Assembly: GCA_043817405.1 (NCBI GenBank)
Contig: JBDRGV010000036.1
Coordinates: forward strand, 1 to 59,004
Source of the DNA: an archaeon
GTDB taxonomy: Archaea; Nanobdellota; Nanobdellia; Woesearchaeales; GCA-2686295
Length of the DNA: 59,004 bases
Reading direction: 5' to 3'
Part shown: piece by piece, positions 9,683 to 52,166 of the stretch
Numbering within the stretch: the stretch's first letter is position 1
Layout of the letters: every line of letters starts with the position of its first letter
Notes under the pieces: generated by a model
Databases searched by the model: none
What the model saw: the letters and a program-made list of their open reading frames with translations, nothing else
Told to the model about the DNA's origin: nothing
Translations under genes and position numbers: made by a program

Positions 9683-9728
9683 AAGTAATTTAGAAAACTT
9701 TTTTAAATGAACTGTGAATATCTGACTC

Positions 9729-9799
9729 TATGCCTCCGCAAACAAAAATCAGAAAAGATTTTTGGGCGTCGCCATTTTTTGCGGAAAAAGGCAAAATAT
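9729..9799. repeat. Copy of the tRNA-Thr 5' end (TATGCCTCCG) plus a palindromic hairpin insert with a GGGCGTCGCC core, directly upstream of tRNA-Thr
   Basis: TATGCCTCCG occurs at 9729-9738 and again at 9797-9806. Between the copies lie 58 nt with outer stem CCGCAAA/TTTGCGG, inner hairpin AAAAATC-AGAAAA-GATTTTT, and GGGCGTCGCC. This is related to the elements at 45941 and 51936. Confidence 0.6.
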
Positions 9800-9872
9800 G
9801 CCTCCGTAGCATAGTAGCTATTGCGGCAGCCTTGTAAGCTGCAGGTCGTGGGTGCAATTCTCATCGGAGGCT
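9800..9872 (+). tRNA. tRNA-Thr (anticodon UGU), with non-canonical T and D loops
   Basis: Hand fold: acceptor GCCTCCG/CGGAGGC, anticodon arm GCAGC-CTTGTAA-GCTGC, T arm GTGGG-TGCAATT-CTCAT, discriminator T. A T6 run follows. The T loop reads TGC where TTC is expected, and the D loop lacks the GG pair. Confidence 0.7.
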
Positions 9873-9873
9873 C

Positions 9874-10208: not shown

Positions 10209-10351
10209 TATTCACCTCTTTAATGCATAAAGATATTTCAATATAAAAATATTGTGAAAATTACAAAAACTATCAAAAGTTTTTGAAAATTCAAAAAATC
10301 ATGCTTTTTGAAAATACAGTATATCGTTTCCGCTATATCGAAACCGATACA

Positions 10352-15732: not shown

Positions 15733-15820
15733 ATATTAAATACTAATCAATTCTAAGAATATAGATGAAGCAACAAAAATCGAAGAATTTTGTGATCCAT
15801 AAAATCATCGAGGTGATTTT

Positions 15821-16441
15821 ATGAAGAAAGAATTCAGCAAAAATAATATGTTTAGTTATAATCTTACTAAGAAAAGATTTTTTTTACTCATAGTGACCAT
15901 TATTCTAATTGCTTTAGCAGCGTTTGTCGTAGTTTACCTTACAGTCTTACGAGAATCAGATTTCATTGTCATAACGATTTTGAAAGCTTTTTTCAATCAC
16001 ATTATTCTAAATATTAAAAGCGGTGGACTTCTTGGAGCGTTCTATACTTCTTTGTTTGGGGGTTTGTTCTTTGTTTTCATGCCAATGGAAGTCGCATTCA
16101 TTGCATTTATCAAATCAGGAAGTTATCCTGCTTTAGTCATAGCGCTCTACGTTTTAGGAATGTTTTTTTCGTTCACAATCAACTATTACATCGGAATGAA
16201 GCTCACAGATATTTCCAAGAAAATTATTACTCCAAGGAAGTTTTACAAGATAAAAACAGTCATAAATAAATACGGGGCGTTGGCAATCTTTGTTTTCAAT
16301 GTCCTGCCATTGCCTGCCCAGCCACTTTCAGCTATACTGGGAGTTTTCAAATATAACAAAGCAAGATTCTACTTTTTTTTCATTTTAGGACAAACTATAA
16401 AATATACATTCATCACAATTGGATATTTTTATATAATATAA
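15821..16441 (+). CDS. DedA/YqaA-like (VTT domain) membrane protein
   Basis: Multi-TM protein with a YGALAIFVFNVLPLPAQPLSAILGVFKYNKARF segment resembling VTT-domain proteins. GAGGTGA lies upstream of the ATG. Confidence 0.55.
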   Translation: MKKEFSKNNMFSYNLTKKRFFLLIVTIILIALAAFVVVYLTVLRESDFIVITILKAFFNHIILNIKSGGLLGAFYTSLFGGLFFVFMPMEVAFIAFIKSGSYPALVIALYVLGMFFSFTINYYIGMKLTDISKKIITPRKFYKIKTVINKYGALAIFVFNVLPLPAQPLSAILGVFKYNKARFYFFFILGQTIKYTFITIGYFYII

Positions 16442-16926: not shown

Positions 16927-16978
16927 TACATAAAAAATTGAGAATTTTTGATGAACATAAATTCAGAAAGGTGAATTT

Positions 16979-17416
16979 ATGACTGATATAATAACAACCG
17001 ATGATATTCTTGGAAAGGAAGCCGTTGATCCTACTGGTCAAGTTCTTGGAACAGTTGTAAAGCTTCATGTCAATAAATTAACAAAAGAAATTGTGGGCTT
17101 GACAATAGACTTAGGATTTATGAAACCAGATTTGTTTGTCGGAACAGAGTTCATCAAACAATTTGGAGTTGACGCAATTCTTTTGAGTAGAGTTCCAACT
17201 GATAAACTCAAAGGATTAGATGTTTTAACATTCGAAGGTCAAGAGATTGGAACAGTAAACAAAGTCATACTTTTCAGAACCAACATCAAAGAGATCATAG
17301 TGACTTCAAAAGAAGGATTCTTTACAAAAGAGCACATCCACATTGCTGCCAACCAGATTGATAAAATTGGCGGAAGCATTATTCTAAAGAAAGGATACAA
17401 GTTGAAGAAGTACTAA
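16979..17416 (+). CDS. PRC-barrel domain protein (two modules)
   Basis: ILGKEAVDPTGQVLGTVVKLHV and GLDVLTFEGQEIGTVNKVIL. Confidence 0.7.
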   Translation: MTDIITTDDILGKEAVDPTGQVLGTVVKLHVNKLTKEIVGLTIDLGFMKPDLFVGTEFIKQFGVDAILLSRVPTDKLKGLDVLTFEGQEIGTVNKVILFRTNIKEIIVTSKEGFFTKEHIHIAANQIDKIGGSIILKKGYKLKKY

Positions 17417-29927: not shown

Positions 29928-30605
29928 ATGAATAAAATATTGTTAGTTGTTCTGATTGTTTTAGGGGTTCTAGTTGTAAGTGTTGCAGCAATAGGAATAA
30001 TGTCAGCATCAAGGGTGAAGTTTGAAAAGCCCGCTGTTTACTTATATCCAGAATCAGATTCTATAATTGATGTAAAAATTGAAACAACCGGAGATATTAT
30101 TGTAAGCGAGCCAGATTATAACAATGGATGGAATGTGTTTGTAACCCGGGAAGGAGAGATTGAAGGAACATATGATTATTTGTTCTACGAAGTTGAATTT
30201 AAAAAGAAAATAGAGTTAGAAAATGAAGGATGGGTTGTTCCATACAATGAACTAGAAGAGTGGATGGACACAGTCTTGTTTGACCTGGGTTTAAATGAGA
30301 AAGAACAAAGTCAGTTCAAAGAATACTGGATAAACAGATTACCAAAAGCAAATTATTACGAGATAAAACTATTGAGTCAGGAATTCTTAAAAGAAGAAAT
30401 GGATTTAATAATAACTCCAGAGCCAGACACGATTTTAAGATTAAATTTCTACTTCAAAGCTTTGAAAGAAACGCTCAGCAGTGAAACTGCTGGCGCGCCC
30501 AAAGATGAACTTTTGAGCGAAACAAGCCTTGAAGAACCAAAAATAAACACTCCAAGCAGAGAAGGATTCACAGTTGTCGAATGGGGCGGAGTATTAGAAA
30601 AGTAA
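29928..30605 (+). CDS. N-terminally anchored extracytoplasmic hypothetical protein
   Basis: N-terminal TM ILLVVLIVLGVLVVSVAAIGI. I recognise no catalytic motif. Confidence 0.55.
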   Translation: MNKILLVVLIVLGVLVVSVAAIGIMSASRVKFEKPAVYLYPESDSIIDVKIETTGDIIVSEPDYNNGWNVFVTREGEIEGTYDYLFYEVEFKKKIELENEGWVVPYNELEEWMDTVLFDLGLNEKEQSQFKEYWINRLPKANYYEIKLLSQEFLKEEMDLIITPEPDTILRLNFYFKALKETLSSETAGAPKDELLSETSLEEPKINTPSREGFTVVEWGGVLEK

Positions 30606-36432: not shown

Positions 36433-36595
36433 GCATTACTAATTCTCTCGTGGTTTTAAAAGTTTTATTGAATAAAAGTAATAAATATAATAAAGTAGGT
36501 AGAAAATTATTTAAATAATAAATGTTCTTATACATTGTATGAAAGATATCAAAAATTGAAAATTTTTGGGATCTTCAAAATTTAAAGGTGAAATT

Positions 36596-36745
36596 TTGAA
36601 AGACATAAACATCGAACTAAATGATAAAACCCACTCACTGGCAAAGGTCTGTGCAGTTCTGAAAAATATTACAATGCGAGAGTATCTTCAGAAAGCCATA
36701 GAGAAAGCAGTGGAAAAAGATAAAGAAGTTCTTAAAAACTTATGA
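36596..36745 (+). CDS. Small ribbon-helix-helix protein, third member of the family seen at 1348 and 1487
   Basis: TTG start 5 nt after AAAGGTG. The product LKDINIELNDKTHSLAKVCAVLKNITMREYLQKAIEKAVEKDKEVLKNL is colinear with MTNINIELPDEIHK... It is below the ORF-track cutoff. Confidence 0.5.
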   Translation: MKDINIELNDKTHSLAKVCAVLKNITMREYLQKAIEKAVEKDKEVLKNL

Positions 36746-45814: not shown

Positions 45815-45940
45815 AAACGACGGTCACAACAAAATGCAAAGCATTTTGAGTTCCAAAAACCTTTCGGTTTTTGTTATTTCCGTCGAGACCATTGTGCTCC
45901 CTTCGGTCACAATGCAAAAGCATCAAAAGATAATCTGTAG
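45815..45940. other. Structured intergenic region with several hairpins and an internal direct repeat
   Basis: CGACGG (45818-45823) can pair with CCGTCG (45880-45885), enclosing hairpins AAAATGC-AAA-GCATTTT and CAAAAACC-TTTC-GGTTTTTG. CATTGTG-(11 nt)-CACAATG follows. The motif CGGTCACAA..AATGCAAAGCAT occurs twice. Confidence 0.3.
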
Positions 45941-46053
45941 AAGAAAATATGGGGACGCCGGGACGCTCAAAACGTTTTTCGTTTTGGCGCGCCAAAAATG
46001 TTTCATTTTTGAGCGTTTGAAAAATCCCTAGTCCAATATTTTCAAAGAAAATA
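45941..46053. repeat. Copy of the tRNA-Phe 3' end and flank (23 nt), a 52-nt GGCGCGCC-centred palindrome and a degenerate T-arm remnant, directly next to tRNA-Phe
   Basis: AAGAAAATATGGGGACGCCGGGA occurs at 45941-45963 and 46045-46067. The palindrome CGCTCAAAACGTTTTTCGTTTTGGCGCGCCAAAAATGTTTCATTTTTGAGCG is at 45964-46015. TTTGAAAAATCCC follows, then the hairpin ATATTTTC-AAA-GAAAATAT. Confidence 0.7.
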
Positions 46054-46127
46054 TGGGGACGCCGGGATTTGAACCCGGGACCACTAGATCTTCAGTCTAG
46101 TGCTCTCCCAGTCTGAGCTACGTCCCC
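46054..46127 (-). tRNA. tRNA-Phe (anticodon GAA)
   Basis: Hand fold of the reverse complement: GGGGACG TA GCTC AGACTGGGA GAGC A CTAGA CTGAAGA TCTAG TGGTC CCGGG TTCAAAT CCCGG CGTCCCC A. All stems are Watson-Crick, G37 is present, and CCA is not encoded. Confidence 0.95.
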
Positions 46128-46152
46128 AAATAAACAAAAAAATATGAAAAAA

Positions 46153-51786: not shown

Positions 51787-51935
51787 CTGTAAACTCGTTA
51801 GTTACTTTATAAGGTATTACTATATAAATTTTTTTATTATAGAATGATAAATACCCTGACAAAAAAGATAGTATTACAATATTTAGAACAAAGGAATGTT
51901 TATTTTAAAACTATTGAGAAGAAAAAAAAGAAAAG

Positions 51936-52043
51936 TGGAGATGCTGAGACGCTCAAAAATCAAAGATTTTTGGCGCGCCAAAAATAAGAAATATTTTTGA
52001 GCGTTCGAAGAATCTCAAGTCACAATTTTTTCTAAAGAAAAAA
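51936..52043. repeat. Copy of the tRNA-Trp 3' end (14 nt, 1 mismatch), a 54-nt GGCGCGCC-centred palindrome and a degenerate T-arm remnant, directly next to tRNA-Trp
   Basis: TGGAGATGCTGAGA at 51936-51949 matches TGGGGATGCTGAGA at 52044-52057. The palindrome CGCTCAAAAATCAAAGATTTTTGGCGCGCCAAAAATAAGAAATATTTTTGAGCG is at 51950-52003. TTCGAAGAATCTC follows, then the hairpin ATTTTTTC-TAAA-GAAAAAAT. Confidence 0.7.
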
Positions 52044-52166
52044 TGGGGATGCTGAGATTCGAACTCAGATCGGCCGGTATCACCAAATAGTGAAAGTCAT
52101 TGGACGGAGTCCTCATCGCTCCATTTTTTGGAGCCGGCAATTCTGGCCAGGTTATACTACATCCCC
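52044..52166 (-). tRNA. tRNA-Trp (anticodon CCA) with a ~49-nt intron at the canonical 37/38 position
   Basis: Hand fold: acceptor GGGGATG/CATCCCC, anticodon stem GCCGG...CCGGC, loop CTCCAA|intron|A, T arm CTGAG-TTCGAAT-CTCAG, discriminator A. The intron (about 52079-52127) starts AAAATGGAGC, and TGGAGC pairs with the anticodon region GCTCCA. The D stem has one mismatch. Confidence 0.8.

What the first reader, a model, noticed from the sequence alone, without database searches (positions are those of the whole stretch)
9729..9806. A related hairpin element inserted between the promoter and tRNA-Thr, flanked by a 10-bp direct repeat of the tRNA 5' end
TATGCCTCCG occurs at 9729-9738 and 9797-9806. 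The second copy contains the first 7 nt of tRNA-Thr.

The 58 nt in between contain an outer stem CCGCAAA/TTTGCGG, which borrows the CCG of the duplicated acceptor strand. They also contain the inner hairpin AAAAATC-AGAAAA-GATTTTT and then GGGCGTCGCC. The stretch AAAAATCAGAAAAGATTTTTGGGCGTCGCCA is close to AAAAATCAAAGATTTTTGGCGCGCCA of the Trp-linked element.

A TATA-like TTTTAAAT (9701-9708) sits 24 nt upstream of the upstream copy, not of the real 5' end. Transcription therefore probably starts at the duplicated copy and gives a ~68-nt structured leader that RNase P must remove.

The layout looks like an insertion with a 10-bp target duplication. On the + strand the element lies to the left of the tRNA at all three loci, irrespective of tRNA orientation, which hints at a DNA-level, strand-specific process.
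Basis: partly seen in the sequence, partly recalled or inferred. Interest (0 to 1): 0.68.

Follow-up and report, generated by a model that had tools for sequence, protein, structure and literature searches.

The report
Hairpin repeat copying RNA-gene ends
The hairpin in front of tRNA-Thr is a worn, half-size copy of an apparently undescribed small repeat of DPANN archaea that sits at the ends of tRNA and rRNA genes inside a direct-inverted-direct copy of the gene's last 10-27 bases, and in one relative the same layout has become a tRNA intron.

Summary
TATGCCTCCG occurs exactly twice (9729-9738, 9797-9806), and the 58 nt between hold a hairpin related to those beside tRNA-Trp and tRNA-Phe.

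The window comes from a DPANN (Woesearchaeota-like) archaeon. The shared core is a ~26-nt hairpin unit: C-R-C, a bulged T, C, A5, a variable tip, T5, G, G-Y-G. It usually occurs as a head-to-head doublet of 48-60 nt, here called M. Covariation supports two hairpins.

M occurs in many DPANN assemblies, often several times per genome. It has no Rfam family and no IMG/VR match. A third of the unique copies lie at stable-RNA gene ends in one layout: gene end T, imperfect inverted copy T', M, direct copy T. This holds for several tRNA 3' ends, two tRNA 5' ends and a 16S 3' end.

Related genomes show filled and empty sites. One M is an in-frame 16-codon insertion in a protein gene. In one relative the layout interrupts the tRNA-Phe T-loop, with a predicted bulge-helix-bulge motif.

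The Thr copy has one good unit. Two of three relatives share it, always 23 nt after the conserved TATA box, so a structured 5' leader is likely.

The "always left on + strand" rule fails. The mechanism is unresolved.

The parts
9695..9708 (+). Archaeal promoter-like AAAACTTTTTTAAAT (TATA box at 9701-9708).
   Evidence: Read. The same motif is conserved in orthologous loci L072, L073 and L075. It lies 23 nt before the displaced 5'-end copy, or 25 nt before the tRNA where no element is present.
9729..9738 (+). Distal direct copy (T) of the tRNA-Thr 5' end: TAT plus GCCTCCG.
   Evidence: Exact 10-bp repeat. L073 and L075 carry GCCTTCG and GCCTCTG at the same place.
9737..9768 (+). One hairpin unit of the family: CGC-AAA-C-AAAAATC-(AGAAAA)-GATTTTT-G-G-GCG.
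   Evidence: Compared with the 66 half-units. Partial CM match at 9737-9783. Compensatory stem changes in L073 (AAAAAT/ATTTTT) and L075 (AAAAAGC/GCTTTTT).
9769..9781 (+). Degenerate remnant of a second unit: TCGCCATTTTTTG, with foot and T-run but no A-run or loop.
   Evidence: By eye against the doublet consensus. Low CM score.
9782..9796 (+). T', read by eye as an imperfect inverted copy of the duplicated segment: CGGA-AAAA-GGCA-AAA(-TA). It pairs with the distal copy.
   Evidence: RNAfold pairs GCCU:AGGC and CCGCAAA:UUUGCGG. L073 and L075 have CGCAGGC and CGTAGGC. The alignment is not significant for this locus alone (p = 0.39). The family-wide test is significant.
9797..9806 (+). Proximal direct copy (T): 3 nt of flank plus the first 7 nt of the functional tRNA.
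9800..9873 (+). tRNA-Thr(UGU).
   Evidence: ARAGORN. Rfam tRNA at 59.2 bits.
45941..45963 (-). Phe locus, distal copy T: the last 14 nt of tRNA-Phe plus 9 nt of trailer.
   Evidence: 23/23 direct repeat.
45964..46015 (.). Phe locus, full hairpin doublet M.
   Evidence: CM R1 at 71.3 bits, E = 4e-18.
46016..46044 (-). Phe locus. Read on the tRNA strand: inverted copy T' (GAAAATATTGGACTAGGGATTT), then a direct copy of T-loop nt 54-59 (TTCAAA).
   Evidence: Alignment to rc(T), p = 0.0005. The orthologue L001/L020 keeps it and co-varies (GAAC vs GGAC).
46045..46128 (-). Proximal T (46045-46067) overlapping intact tRNA-Phe(GAA) at 46053-46128.
51926..51949 (-). Trp locus, distal copy T (83% identical to the gene end).
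51950..52003 (.). Trp locus, full hairpin doublet M.
   Evidence: CM R1 at 72.4 bits.
52004..52033 (-). Trp locus. Inverted copy T' (AGAAAAAATTGTGACTTGAGATTC), then a direct copy of T-loop nt 54-59 (TTCGAA).
   Evidence: p = 0.0005. The element is absent at the orthologous Trp loci of L001 and L002.
52034..52166 (-). Proximal T (52034-52057) overlapping intron-containing tRNA-Trp(CCA), about 52044-52166.
   Evidence: aragorn -i on the identical contig L050. Sequence read.
30472..30519 (.). M doublet (GC-richer stems) inside ORF 29928-30605, in frame.
   Evidence: CM at 38 bits, E = 1e-8. A 16-aa insertion absent from 9 homologues.
45827..45873 (.). Degenerate doublet next to the Phe element, enclosed by the inverted repeat CGACGG...CCGTCG.
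   Evidence: CM at 26.8 bits. Inverted repeat I1.
36549..36602 (.). Degenerate intergenic doublet that lacks the GC feet.
   Evidence: CM at 36 bits.

Best explanation
The Thr element is a decayed, one-unit member of a lineage-specific family of small hairpin repeats of DPANN archaea. I read the family as non-autonomous mobile DNA, resembling REPINs or MITEs.

**Basic module (shown).** The unit is a ~26-nt imperfect hairpin with a GC foot, one bulged base and an A5:T5 stem. It usually occurs as a head-to-head doublet, M.

**Mobility (shown).** M can insert on its own.

**Layout at stable-RNA gene ends (shown).** The order is: functional gene end T, an imperfect inverted copy T', M, then a displaced direct copy T. 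An intact gene survives. M sits at the tip of a long T':T hairpin.

**At tRNA-Thr (inferred).**
- The displaced copy keeps the original promoter spacing.
- The gene is therefore transcribed with a leader of about 68 nt. In that leader, T' sequesters the decoy acceptor strand.
- RNase P then has to remove the leader.

**Origin of the direct-inverted-direct copies (inferred).** They arise at the DNA level during insertion or repair, by strand switching at hairpins (the module itself and the T-arm). The enzyme that moves M acts in trans and is unknown.

**Link to introns (shown for L078, inferred more generally).** Either T copy can become the functional one. When the distal copy is kept, the intervening piece becomes a T-loop intron.
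For: **Family and structure**
- 33 unique doublets were collected from DPANN MAGs and metagenome contigs.
- The two-hairpin fold gives 96.4% paired cells and 96 double-change cells. The covariation score is 0.343 against 0.100 for shuffles (0 of 500 reach it), and slid controls score 0.036 or less.
- Foot pair 2 is G-C 39 times, A-T 25 times, with 2 exceptions.
- No G-U cells occur at all. This fits a constraint on DNA, or on both strands.

**Mobility**
- The Trp element is in the window but absent at the orthologous sites of L001 and L002.
- The Phe element is in the window and L001 but absent in L002 and L079.
- One M is an exact 16-codon in-frame insertion in a conserved protein.
- L041 carries two tandem 99-nt units and a 561-bp version with cargo.
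- Several genomes carry multiple copies, some at contig ends.

**Layout**
- Direct repeats of 10-27 nt are spaced 99-111 nt apart in 8 loci.
- The inverted copy is significant in 9 of 10 loci, with Fisher p about 1e-13.
- M lies 32-40 nt beyond the tRNA 3' end in 7 loci.
- 11-12 of 33 unique copies lie at stable-RNA gene ends, including a 16S 3' end.

**Thr locus**
- The promoter spacing is conserved, and related leaders occur in L073 and L075.

**Intron link**
- In L078, tRNA-Phe is interrupted at positions 59/60 by an M-bearing insert. Only the distal T complements the 5' acceptor strand. The predicted motif is bulge, 4-bp helix, bulge.

**Other**
- No Rfam family matches.
Against: - No transposase, integrase or HUH (single-strand DNA nuclease) gene was found. 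Among 150 neighbouring ORFs there is no recurrent recombinase. Mobility is inferred from distribution only.
- The Thr leader persists in lineages whose neighbouring proteins are only 67-69% identical, with compensatory stem changes. In the Phe element of L001, T and T' both changed together with that genome's acceptor stem. Both facts fit selection on a function as well as they fit recurrent insertion.
- The regular geometry (32-40 nt) argues for a defined mechanism, which I cannot name.
- The proposed strand switching needs several steps.
- The Thr copy itself matches the family model only weakly (E about 0.07). Its inverted copy is not significant on its own (p = 0.39).
- T5 and T6 runs inside the leader could terminate archaeal RNA polymerase.
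Confidence: 0.55

Rival explanations
1. A functional cis-acting RNA structure. On this view the leader and trailer hairpins are selected parts of pre-tRNA and pre-rRNA. They could act as a processing or quality-control signal, an end-protecting hairpin, an attenuator, or a switch in which T' pairs with either T. They would not be selfish DNA.
For: - The leader is conserved at the same place in L073 and L075, with compensatory stem changes.
- In the Phe element, T and T' track the lineage-specific acceptor change.
- Spacing is regular.
- The outer edge of the repeat coincides with the likely transcript ends.
- All 3 tRNAs in the window, and both tRNAs examined on L041, carry one.
Against: - Close relatives have empty sites.
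- The same module occurs inside ORFs and scattered in intergenic DNA, far from RNA genes.
- There are no G-U pairs in 702 cells, and the design is identical on both strands.
- The module lies on the 5' side of some genes and the 3' side of others.
- No Rfam family matches.
Confidence: 0.2
2. Attachment-site scars or miniature integrative elements. On this view a tyrosine integrase of a virus or plasmid recombined within the tRNA (T-arm class). This duplicated the tRNA end. M would be the attP arm left after deletion of the element, or a cis-mobilisable mini-element.
For: - There are direct repeats of tRNA 3' ends that begin in the T-loop.
- One version carries 480 bp of cargo between 25-nt repeats.
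- Tandem units occur.
- Archaeal integrative elements are known to leave partial tRNA copies (PMC3293823).
Against: - No integrase lies in any flank.
- There are no IMG/VR matches.
- The units are about 100 bp and uniform in size.
- Targets include a 16S 3' end and tRNA 5' ends.
- An inverted copy of the target is not expected from integrase chemistry.
- M also inserts with no repeat at all.
Confidence: 0.12
3. Intron-derived. On this view M-bearing sequences are primarily bulge-helix-bulge introns that spread among tRNA genes. The window's three elements would be leftovers after an intron-free gene end was regenerated.
For: - In L078, tRNA-Phe carries the module as a T-loop intervening sequence with a predicted BHB-like motif.
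- Relatives are rich in non-canonical introns.
- In the window, M sits exactly at position 59/60 of the displaced T-arm copies.
Against: - The window copies lie outside the mature tRNAs and show no BHB at their junctions (and by eye).
- M occurs in protein genes and at a 16S end.
- Only one interrupted gene was found.
Confidence: 0.1
4. A chance repeat plus an ordinary AT-rich hairpin.
For: A single 10-bp repeat in AT-rich DNA is weak on its own. The repeat finder itself warns that short two-copy families are often chance.
Against: - The core motif has 0 matches expected by chance.
- The other two tRNAs carry 23- and 24-nt repeats.
- The layout recurs in other genomes.
Confidence: 0.01

Closest known systems
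REP / REPIN elements of bacteria (mobilised by RAYT, an IS200/IS605-like HUH transposase)
   Same: - Short imperfect palindromes with an extrahelical base.
- Units paired head-to-head into a doublet of about 50-100 nt.
- Many copies per genome, mostly extragenic.
- Structure is conserved by compensatory change, and persistence is long (PMC3116915, PMC3337134, listed).
   Different: - The host is archaeal (DPANN).
- There is no GTAG or CGTC tag; the foot is CRC...GYG.
- No RAYT or TnpA gene was seen.
- To my knowledge, REPINs are not reported to sit in direct-inverted-direct copies of tRNA or rRNA gene ends, nor to become tRNA introns.
Integration of archaeal viruses and plasmids into tRNA genes (SSV- and pNOB8-type integrases), which leaves partial tRNA copies
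   Same: - Direct repeats of the tRNA end flank the inserted DNA.
- The repeat often starts in the T-arm.
- The gene is reconstituted.
- This has been proposed as a route to tRNA fragments and introns (PMC3293823).
   Different: - The insert is about 80 nt with no genes.
- An inverted copy of the target is present.
- 16S rRNA ends and tRNA 5' ends are also hit.
- No integrase was found.
Non-canonical archaeal tRNA introns (bulge-helix-bulge) and their proposed transposition
   Same: - Position 59/60 in the T-loop.
- Similar intervening sequences occur at different tRNAs.
- The L078 copy has a predicted BHB-like motif.
- DPANN archaea are known to have broad-specificity splicing endonucleases (PMC3239211, PMC3488258; abstracts listed).
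   Different: In the window the elements lie outside the mature tRNA, so they need no splicing. The module also occurs in protein genes.
Structured 5' leaders of pre-tRNAs removed by RNase P
   Same: It lies between the promoter and the tRNA 5' end, so it must be removed to give a mature 5' end.
   Different: The leader starts with a copy of the acceptor 5' strand, which is paired to its own complement. It also shares a module with elements on the 3' side of other genes.

Membership tests
REP/REPIN | Short imperfect palindrome that forms a hairpin, with structure kept by compensatory change | tested here: met
   66 half-units all fold the same way. Covariation is 0.343 against 0.100 for shuffles.
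REP/REPIN | Two units in inverted orientation forming the mobile doublet | tested here: met
   33 unique head-to-head doublets. The Thr copy has only one good unit.
REP/REPIN | Many copies per genome, mostly extragenic | tested here: inconclusive
   4-5 copies were seen per MAG in the fragments held, and 4-6 in this 59-kb window. No complete genome was available for a count. At least two copies lie inside ORFs.
REP/REPIN | Conserved GTAG or CGTC tetranucleotide at the foot | tested here: not met
   The foot is C-R-C...G-Y-G.
REP/REPIN | A cognate RAYT / IS200-type HUH transposase in the genome | tested here: inconclusive
   None appears among the most frequent Pfam families of 150 neighbouring ORFs (which lists only the 25 most frequent families). 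Eight ORFs checked singly also lacked one. Whole genomes were not available.
MITE | Terminal inverted repeats and a fixed short target-site duplication | tested here: not met
   The ORF insertion is exactly the length of M, with no duplication. At RNA genes the repeats vary from 10 to 27 nt.
Integrase attL/attR pair at a tRNA gene | Direct repeats of the tRNA end flanking the inserted DNA | tested here: met
Integrase attL/attR pair at a tRNA gene | An integrase gene and element genes between the repeats, or such an element elsewhere | tested here: not met
   Inserts are 58-111 nt. The one 561-bp case holds only a small ORF. There are no IMG/VR matches and no integrase in the flanks.
Archaeal BHB intron | Interrupts the mature RNA sequence | tested here: not met
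   The window's Thr, Phe and Trp genes are intact, with the element outside them. The feature is met only in L078.
Archaeal BHB intron | Bulge, 4-bp helix, bulge at the two junctions | tested here: inconclusive
   L078 has a predicted T-stem, a 3-nt bulge, a 4-bp UUCA:UGAA helix, a 5-nt bulge and a 9-bp helix. This rests on an energy model only. The window copies show no such motif.
Pre-tRNA 5' leader (RNase P substrate) | Transcribed from the tRNA promoter and removed at position +1 | not testable with these tools
   Only the promoter position supports it. The TATA box is 23 nt before the displaced copy in three lineages.

The most novel reading that the evidence does not exclude
A new kind of archaeal mobile hairpin element homes to the termini of stable-RNA genes. 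It generates a direct-inverted-direct copy of the terminus by a defined mechanism that is not yet known. Possibilities include single-strand hairpin recombination or snap-back synthesis, perhaps using the reverse transcriptases common in these genomes. By leaving two usable gene ends, the element seeds non-canonical T-loop tRNA introns. That would be a directly observable route of archaeal tRNA intron gain.
Probability: 0.3. Interest if true: 0.85.

Novelty: new variant of a known kind. Interest (0 to 1): 0.66.

Why it matters
**tRNA intron origin.** How archaeal tRNA genes acquire introns at odd positions, and how split or fragmented tRNA genes arise, is a long-standing open question. Here, closely related genomes show three states of one tRNA-Phe locus:
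- empty;
- intact gene plus a displaced end carrying the hairpin module;
- gene interrupted in the T-loop by the same module.

That makes the question testable by comparative genomics and by in-vitro splicing.

**Repeats in a streamlined genome.** It would also be a structure-conserved, REPIN-like repeat family in DPANN archaea, whose genomes are thought to be streamlined.

**Annotation.** tRNA 5' and 3' ends, promoters and small "tRNA fragments" in these genomes will be misread unless the layout is known.

Tried and rejected
- **Rfam.** Gathering and E-value searches of the window and of three loci gave only tRNAs.
- **IMG/VR.** A scan with the core pattern gave 0 hits.
Outer stem plus central palindrome has no covariation support: 0.061 against 0.069 for shuffles.
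- **"Always left on the + strand".** Contradicted by L041 and by the 3'-side rule.
- **Recombinase next door.** Eight ORFs checked singly, and the most frequent Pfam families of 150 ORFs, are all housekeeping. Only the 25 most frequent families are listed, so a single-copy gene could be missed.
- **tRNA minihelix mimic with a free 3' end.** Rejected, because T':T pairing runs on into the trailer and the same layout occurs at a 16S end.
- **Retroviral-type primer-binding site.** Rejected. There is no complement of CCA (by eye).
- **DGR-type adenine mutagenesis between repeat copies.** Differences between copies are not A-specific (by eye). A DGR-like reverse transcriptase does occur on L040, with M inserted in its RT-16 RNA. 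This shows only that the enzyme exists in such genomes.
- **Weaker CM hits at 10260, 15771, 16929 and 24597.** These are AT-rich hairpin pairs without the GC feet. In two of them the second hairpin holds the ribosome-binding site and the start codon. They are probably a different thing.
- **Literature.** Four of the six full-text searches targeted such an element and found no description of it. The other two retrieved background on REPINs and RNase P.
- **Source contig.** An exact-protein lookup of the window's GlyRS found no record.

Full report
**1. The observation**

The sequence is as described.
- TATGCCTCCG occurs at 9729-9738 and 9797-9806 and nowhere else exactly.
- tRNA-Thr(UGU) is at 9800-9873.
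- The 58 nt between the copies fold far better than shuffles.
- The core AAAAATC..GATTTTTGG recurs only at the Trp-linked element, against 0 expected.

A 10-bp repeat alone would be weak evidence. However, the other two tRNAs in the window show the same thing with longer repeats. Phe has 23/23 nt and Trp has 24 nt at 83%. ARAGORN and Rfam missed tRNA-Trp because of its intron. It was found with the intron option on an identical metagenome contig.

**2. The organism**

Glycyl-tRNA synthetase and its neighbours place the window in DPANN archaea of the Woesearchaeota/Nanoarchaeota type. The best hit is 81% identical, on a 155-kb MAG contig with conserved gene order.

**3. What the shared module is**

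A pattern scan of 185,579 species genomes gave 28 loci, about 20 of them in Woese-, Pace- or Nanoarchaeota MAGs. Several MAGs had 4-5 copies each, some at contig ends. A metagenome scan gave 40 more loci. IMG/VR gave none.

From these I took 33 unique full-length copies. Each is two hairpins of about 26 nt placed head-to-head. The unit is C-R-C, a bulged T, C, A5, 1-4 variable pairs, a 3-5-nt loop, T5, G, G-Y-G. I call the doublet M.

On an alignment of 32 copies the two candidate folds differ clearly.

| Fold | Covariation score | Shuffled | Other |
|---|---|---|---|
| Two hairpins | 0.343 | 0.100 (0 of 500 reach it) | 96.4% paired cells; 96 double-change cells; slid controls 0.036 or less |

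Not one of 702 cells is a G-U pair, and both DNA strands have the same design. That points to a constraint on DNA, or on both strands, rather than on a single RNA.

A covariance model scores the window's copies as follows.

| Copy | Coordinates | Score |
|---|---|---|
| Trp | 51950-52003 | 72 bits |
| Phe | 45964-46015 | 71 bits |
| Inside an ORF | 30472-30519 | 38 bits |
| Degenerate, intergenic | 36549-36602 | 36 bits |
| Degenerate, beside the Phe element | 45827-45873 | 27 bits |
| Thr | 9737-9783 | 14 bits, E about 0.07 |

The Thr element has one good unit (9737-9768) and a stump of a second.

**4. The layout at RNA-gene ends**

Read outward from the gene, every linked copy shows the same order:
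- the functional gene end T;
- an imperfect inverted copy T', starting 0-3 nt after T;
- often a short direct copy of the few bases just inside T (T-loop nt 54-59);
- M;
- a displaced direct copy of T.

This holds for these loci:

| Locus | Gene end |
|---|---|
| window | tRNA-Phe 3', tRNA-Trp 3', tRNA-Thr 5' |
| L001/L020 | tRNA-Phe 3' |
| L021 | tRNA-Gln 3' |
| L031 | tRNA-Ala 3' |
| L038 | tRNA-Tyr 3' |
| L041 | tRNA-Ser 3' |
| L006/L037 | tRNA-Gly 3' (a variant) |
| L049 | tRNA-Ile 5' |
| L040 | 16S rRNA 3' |

- Repeat spacing is 99-111 nt in eight loci.
- The inverted copy is significant in 9 of 10 loci, with combined p about 1e-13. It runs from the end of the trailer back to T-loop nt 57. 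That explains the "GGGATTT" and "GAGATTC" seen before the direct TTCAAA or TTCGAA.
- For Thr alone the test is not significant (p = 0.39). By eye the segment reads CGGA(AAAA)GGCA(AAA)TA, which is rc(T) with A-runs inserted.
- M lies 32-40 nt past the tRNA 3' end in seven loci.
- 11-12 of 33 unique copies sit at stable-RNA gene ends.

**5. Evidence for insertion and mobility**

*Trp.* The element is present in the window and absent at the orthologous site of the 81% relative (L001) and of L002. The sequence downstream of the displaced copy matches L001's tRNA-flanking sequence.

*Phe.* The element is present in the window and L001. It is absent in L002 and L079.

*ORF insertion.* The copy at 30472-30519 is in frame. 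It equals a 16-aa insertion absent from nine homologues, so M can insert alone with no duplication.

*L041.*
- It carries two tandem 99-nt units after one tRNA.
- At another tRNA it carries a 561-bp version, with about 480 bp of cargo between 25-nt repeats.
- It also shows elements on the right of a + strand tRNA and on the left of a - strand tRNA.

*In other genomes.* M sits at the tip of longer, multi-copy hairpin repeats.

No recombinase was found nearby.

**6. The Thr locus in relatives**

| Locus | Neighbour-protein identity | State |
|---|---|---|
| L072 | 74% | No element. The TATA box is 25 nt before a rather different tRNA-Thr. |
| L073 | 67% | TATA box, 23 nt, pseudo-acceptor GCCTTCG, one A/T hairpin with compensatory changes, inverted copy CGCAGGC, 9-11 nt, tRNA. 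|
| L075 | 69% | The same layout, with GCCTCTG and CGTAGGC. |

The window has the same 23-nt spacing. So the promoter fires at the displaced copy, and the tRNA must be made with a structured leader.

This is either an old insertion kept in place or a recurrent one. An old insertion could persist because only a precise deletion between the short repeats would be tolerated. In either case the inverted copy would keep the decoy acceptor strand from competing in tRNA folding. Both points are inference. The T5 and T6 runs inside the leader may cost some termination.

**7. Link to introns**

In L078 (GlyRS 66%), tRNA-Phe is interrupted at T-loop position 59/60 by 118 nt that hold an M-like doublet (43 bits).
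- The proximal T is degenerate there.
- Only the distal T complements the 5' acceptor strand.
- The predicted fold has the T-stem, a 3-nt bulge, a 4-bp helix UUCA:UGAA, a 5-nt bulge and a 9-bp helix. The two junctions needed for a normal T-loop fall inside the bulges.

So the same T-T'-T scaffold exists with either T in use, and with M in either loop. This looks like a route to T-loop intron gain. It rests on one locus and on an energy-model fold.

**8. Mechanism**

*Shown.* There is a structure-conserved, multi-copy, insertion-polymorphic hairpin doublet, and a regular direct-inverted-direct layout at gene ends.

*Inferred.*
- DNA-level mobility in trans.
- Strand switching at hairpins as the source of the copies.
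- RNase P removal of the Thr leader.

The regular geometry suggests a defined enzymatic process that I could not identify.

One genome (L040) has a DGR-like reverse transcriptase whose RT-16 RNA carries an inserted M. This is only a lead.

**9. Comparison and verdict**

The module works most like bacterial REPINs, but it fails their tag feature and has no known transposase. The flanking repeats resemble integrase att sites. However, the size, the inverted copy and the 16S and 5'-end targets do not fit that. The L078 copy behaves like a BHB intron, whereas the window copies are not introns.

No description of such an element turned up in the four literature searches aimed at it. Two further searches retrieved background on REPINs and on RNase P.

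I file it as a new variant of known kinds (palindromic repeat plus tRNA-end duplication), of fairly high interest. The main reason is the three-state tRNA-Phe series.

Noticed in passing
window 30472-30519 (ORF 29928-30605): A hairpin doublet lies in frame inside a conserved DPANN protein and adds 16 residues (about LSSETAGAPKDELLSE) that nine homologues lack. Its A5:T5 stems are replaced by GC-richer pairs, but the fold is kept.
   Followed up: yes
window 16929-16985 and 15771-15828: There are pairs of AT-rich hairpins just upstream of genes. The second hairpin contains GGTGA and the ATG start codon, so it may mask translation initiation. They lack the GC feet of the family.
   Followed up: partly
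window ~52044-52166 (-): tRNA-Trp(CCA) has a 49-nt anticodon-loop intron. Default ARAGORN and Rfam gathering thresholds both missed it.
   Followed up: partly
L040 6831-7038 (-) and 5046-6848 (-): An Rfam RT-16 RNA (60.7 bits) has an M doublet inserted in one of its loops. It lies next to a reverse transcriptase ORF (RVT_1 + HTH_40) preceded by an AAC-rich stretch, so it looks like a diversity-generating retroelement (DGR). The same contig has M at the 16S 3' end.
   Followed up: partly
L002 11812-11908; L079 4832-4947; L073 7461-7612; L075 7407-7500: Relatives carry assorted tRNA introns. There is a D-loop insert in tRNA-Phe (L002), an anticodon-loop intron in tRNA-Phe (L079), and long introns in tRNA-Thr (L073, L075).
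   Followed up: no
L072 7270-7342 and 7345-8109: The element-free tRNA-Thr of the closest relative differs strongly from the window's, with a canonical T-loop. It is followed by an ORF with a faint LAGLIDADG hit. This may be a replaced gene.
   Followed up: no
L007, L012, L019, L026 (MAG Zod_Metabat.825); L008, L014-L016, L022 (MAG NC_groundwater_1235): These MAGs carry longer multi-copy repeats (about 180 nt and about 280 nt) with M at the tip of a long outer stem and, in the first, a variable 3' hairpin. Several end contigs, so they break assemblies.
   Followed up: partly
L058 2300-2490 and L059 880-1045: There are clusters of nested or adjacent hairpin units, mixed with other small hairpins. 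In one case a doublet appears to be inserted at the centre of another.
   Followed up: no
L029 / L045 (Methanobacterium sp. MAG and a soil metagenome contig): Weaker doublet matches (37 and 30 bits) occur outside DPANN. They may be a related family in a methanogen.
   Followed up: no
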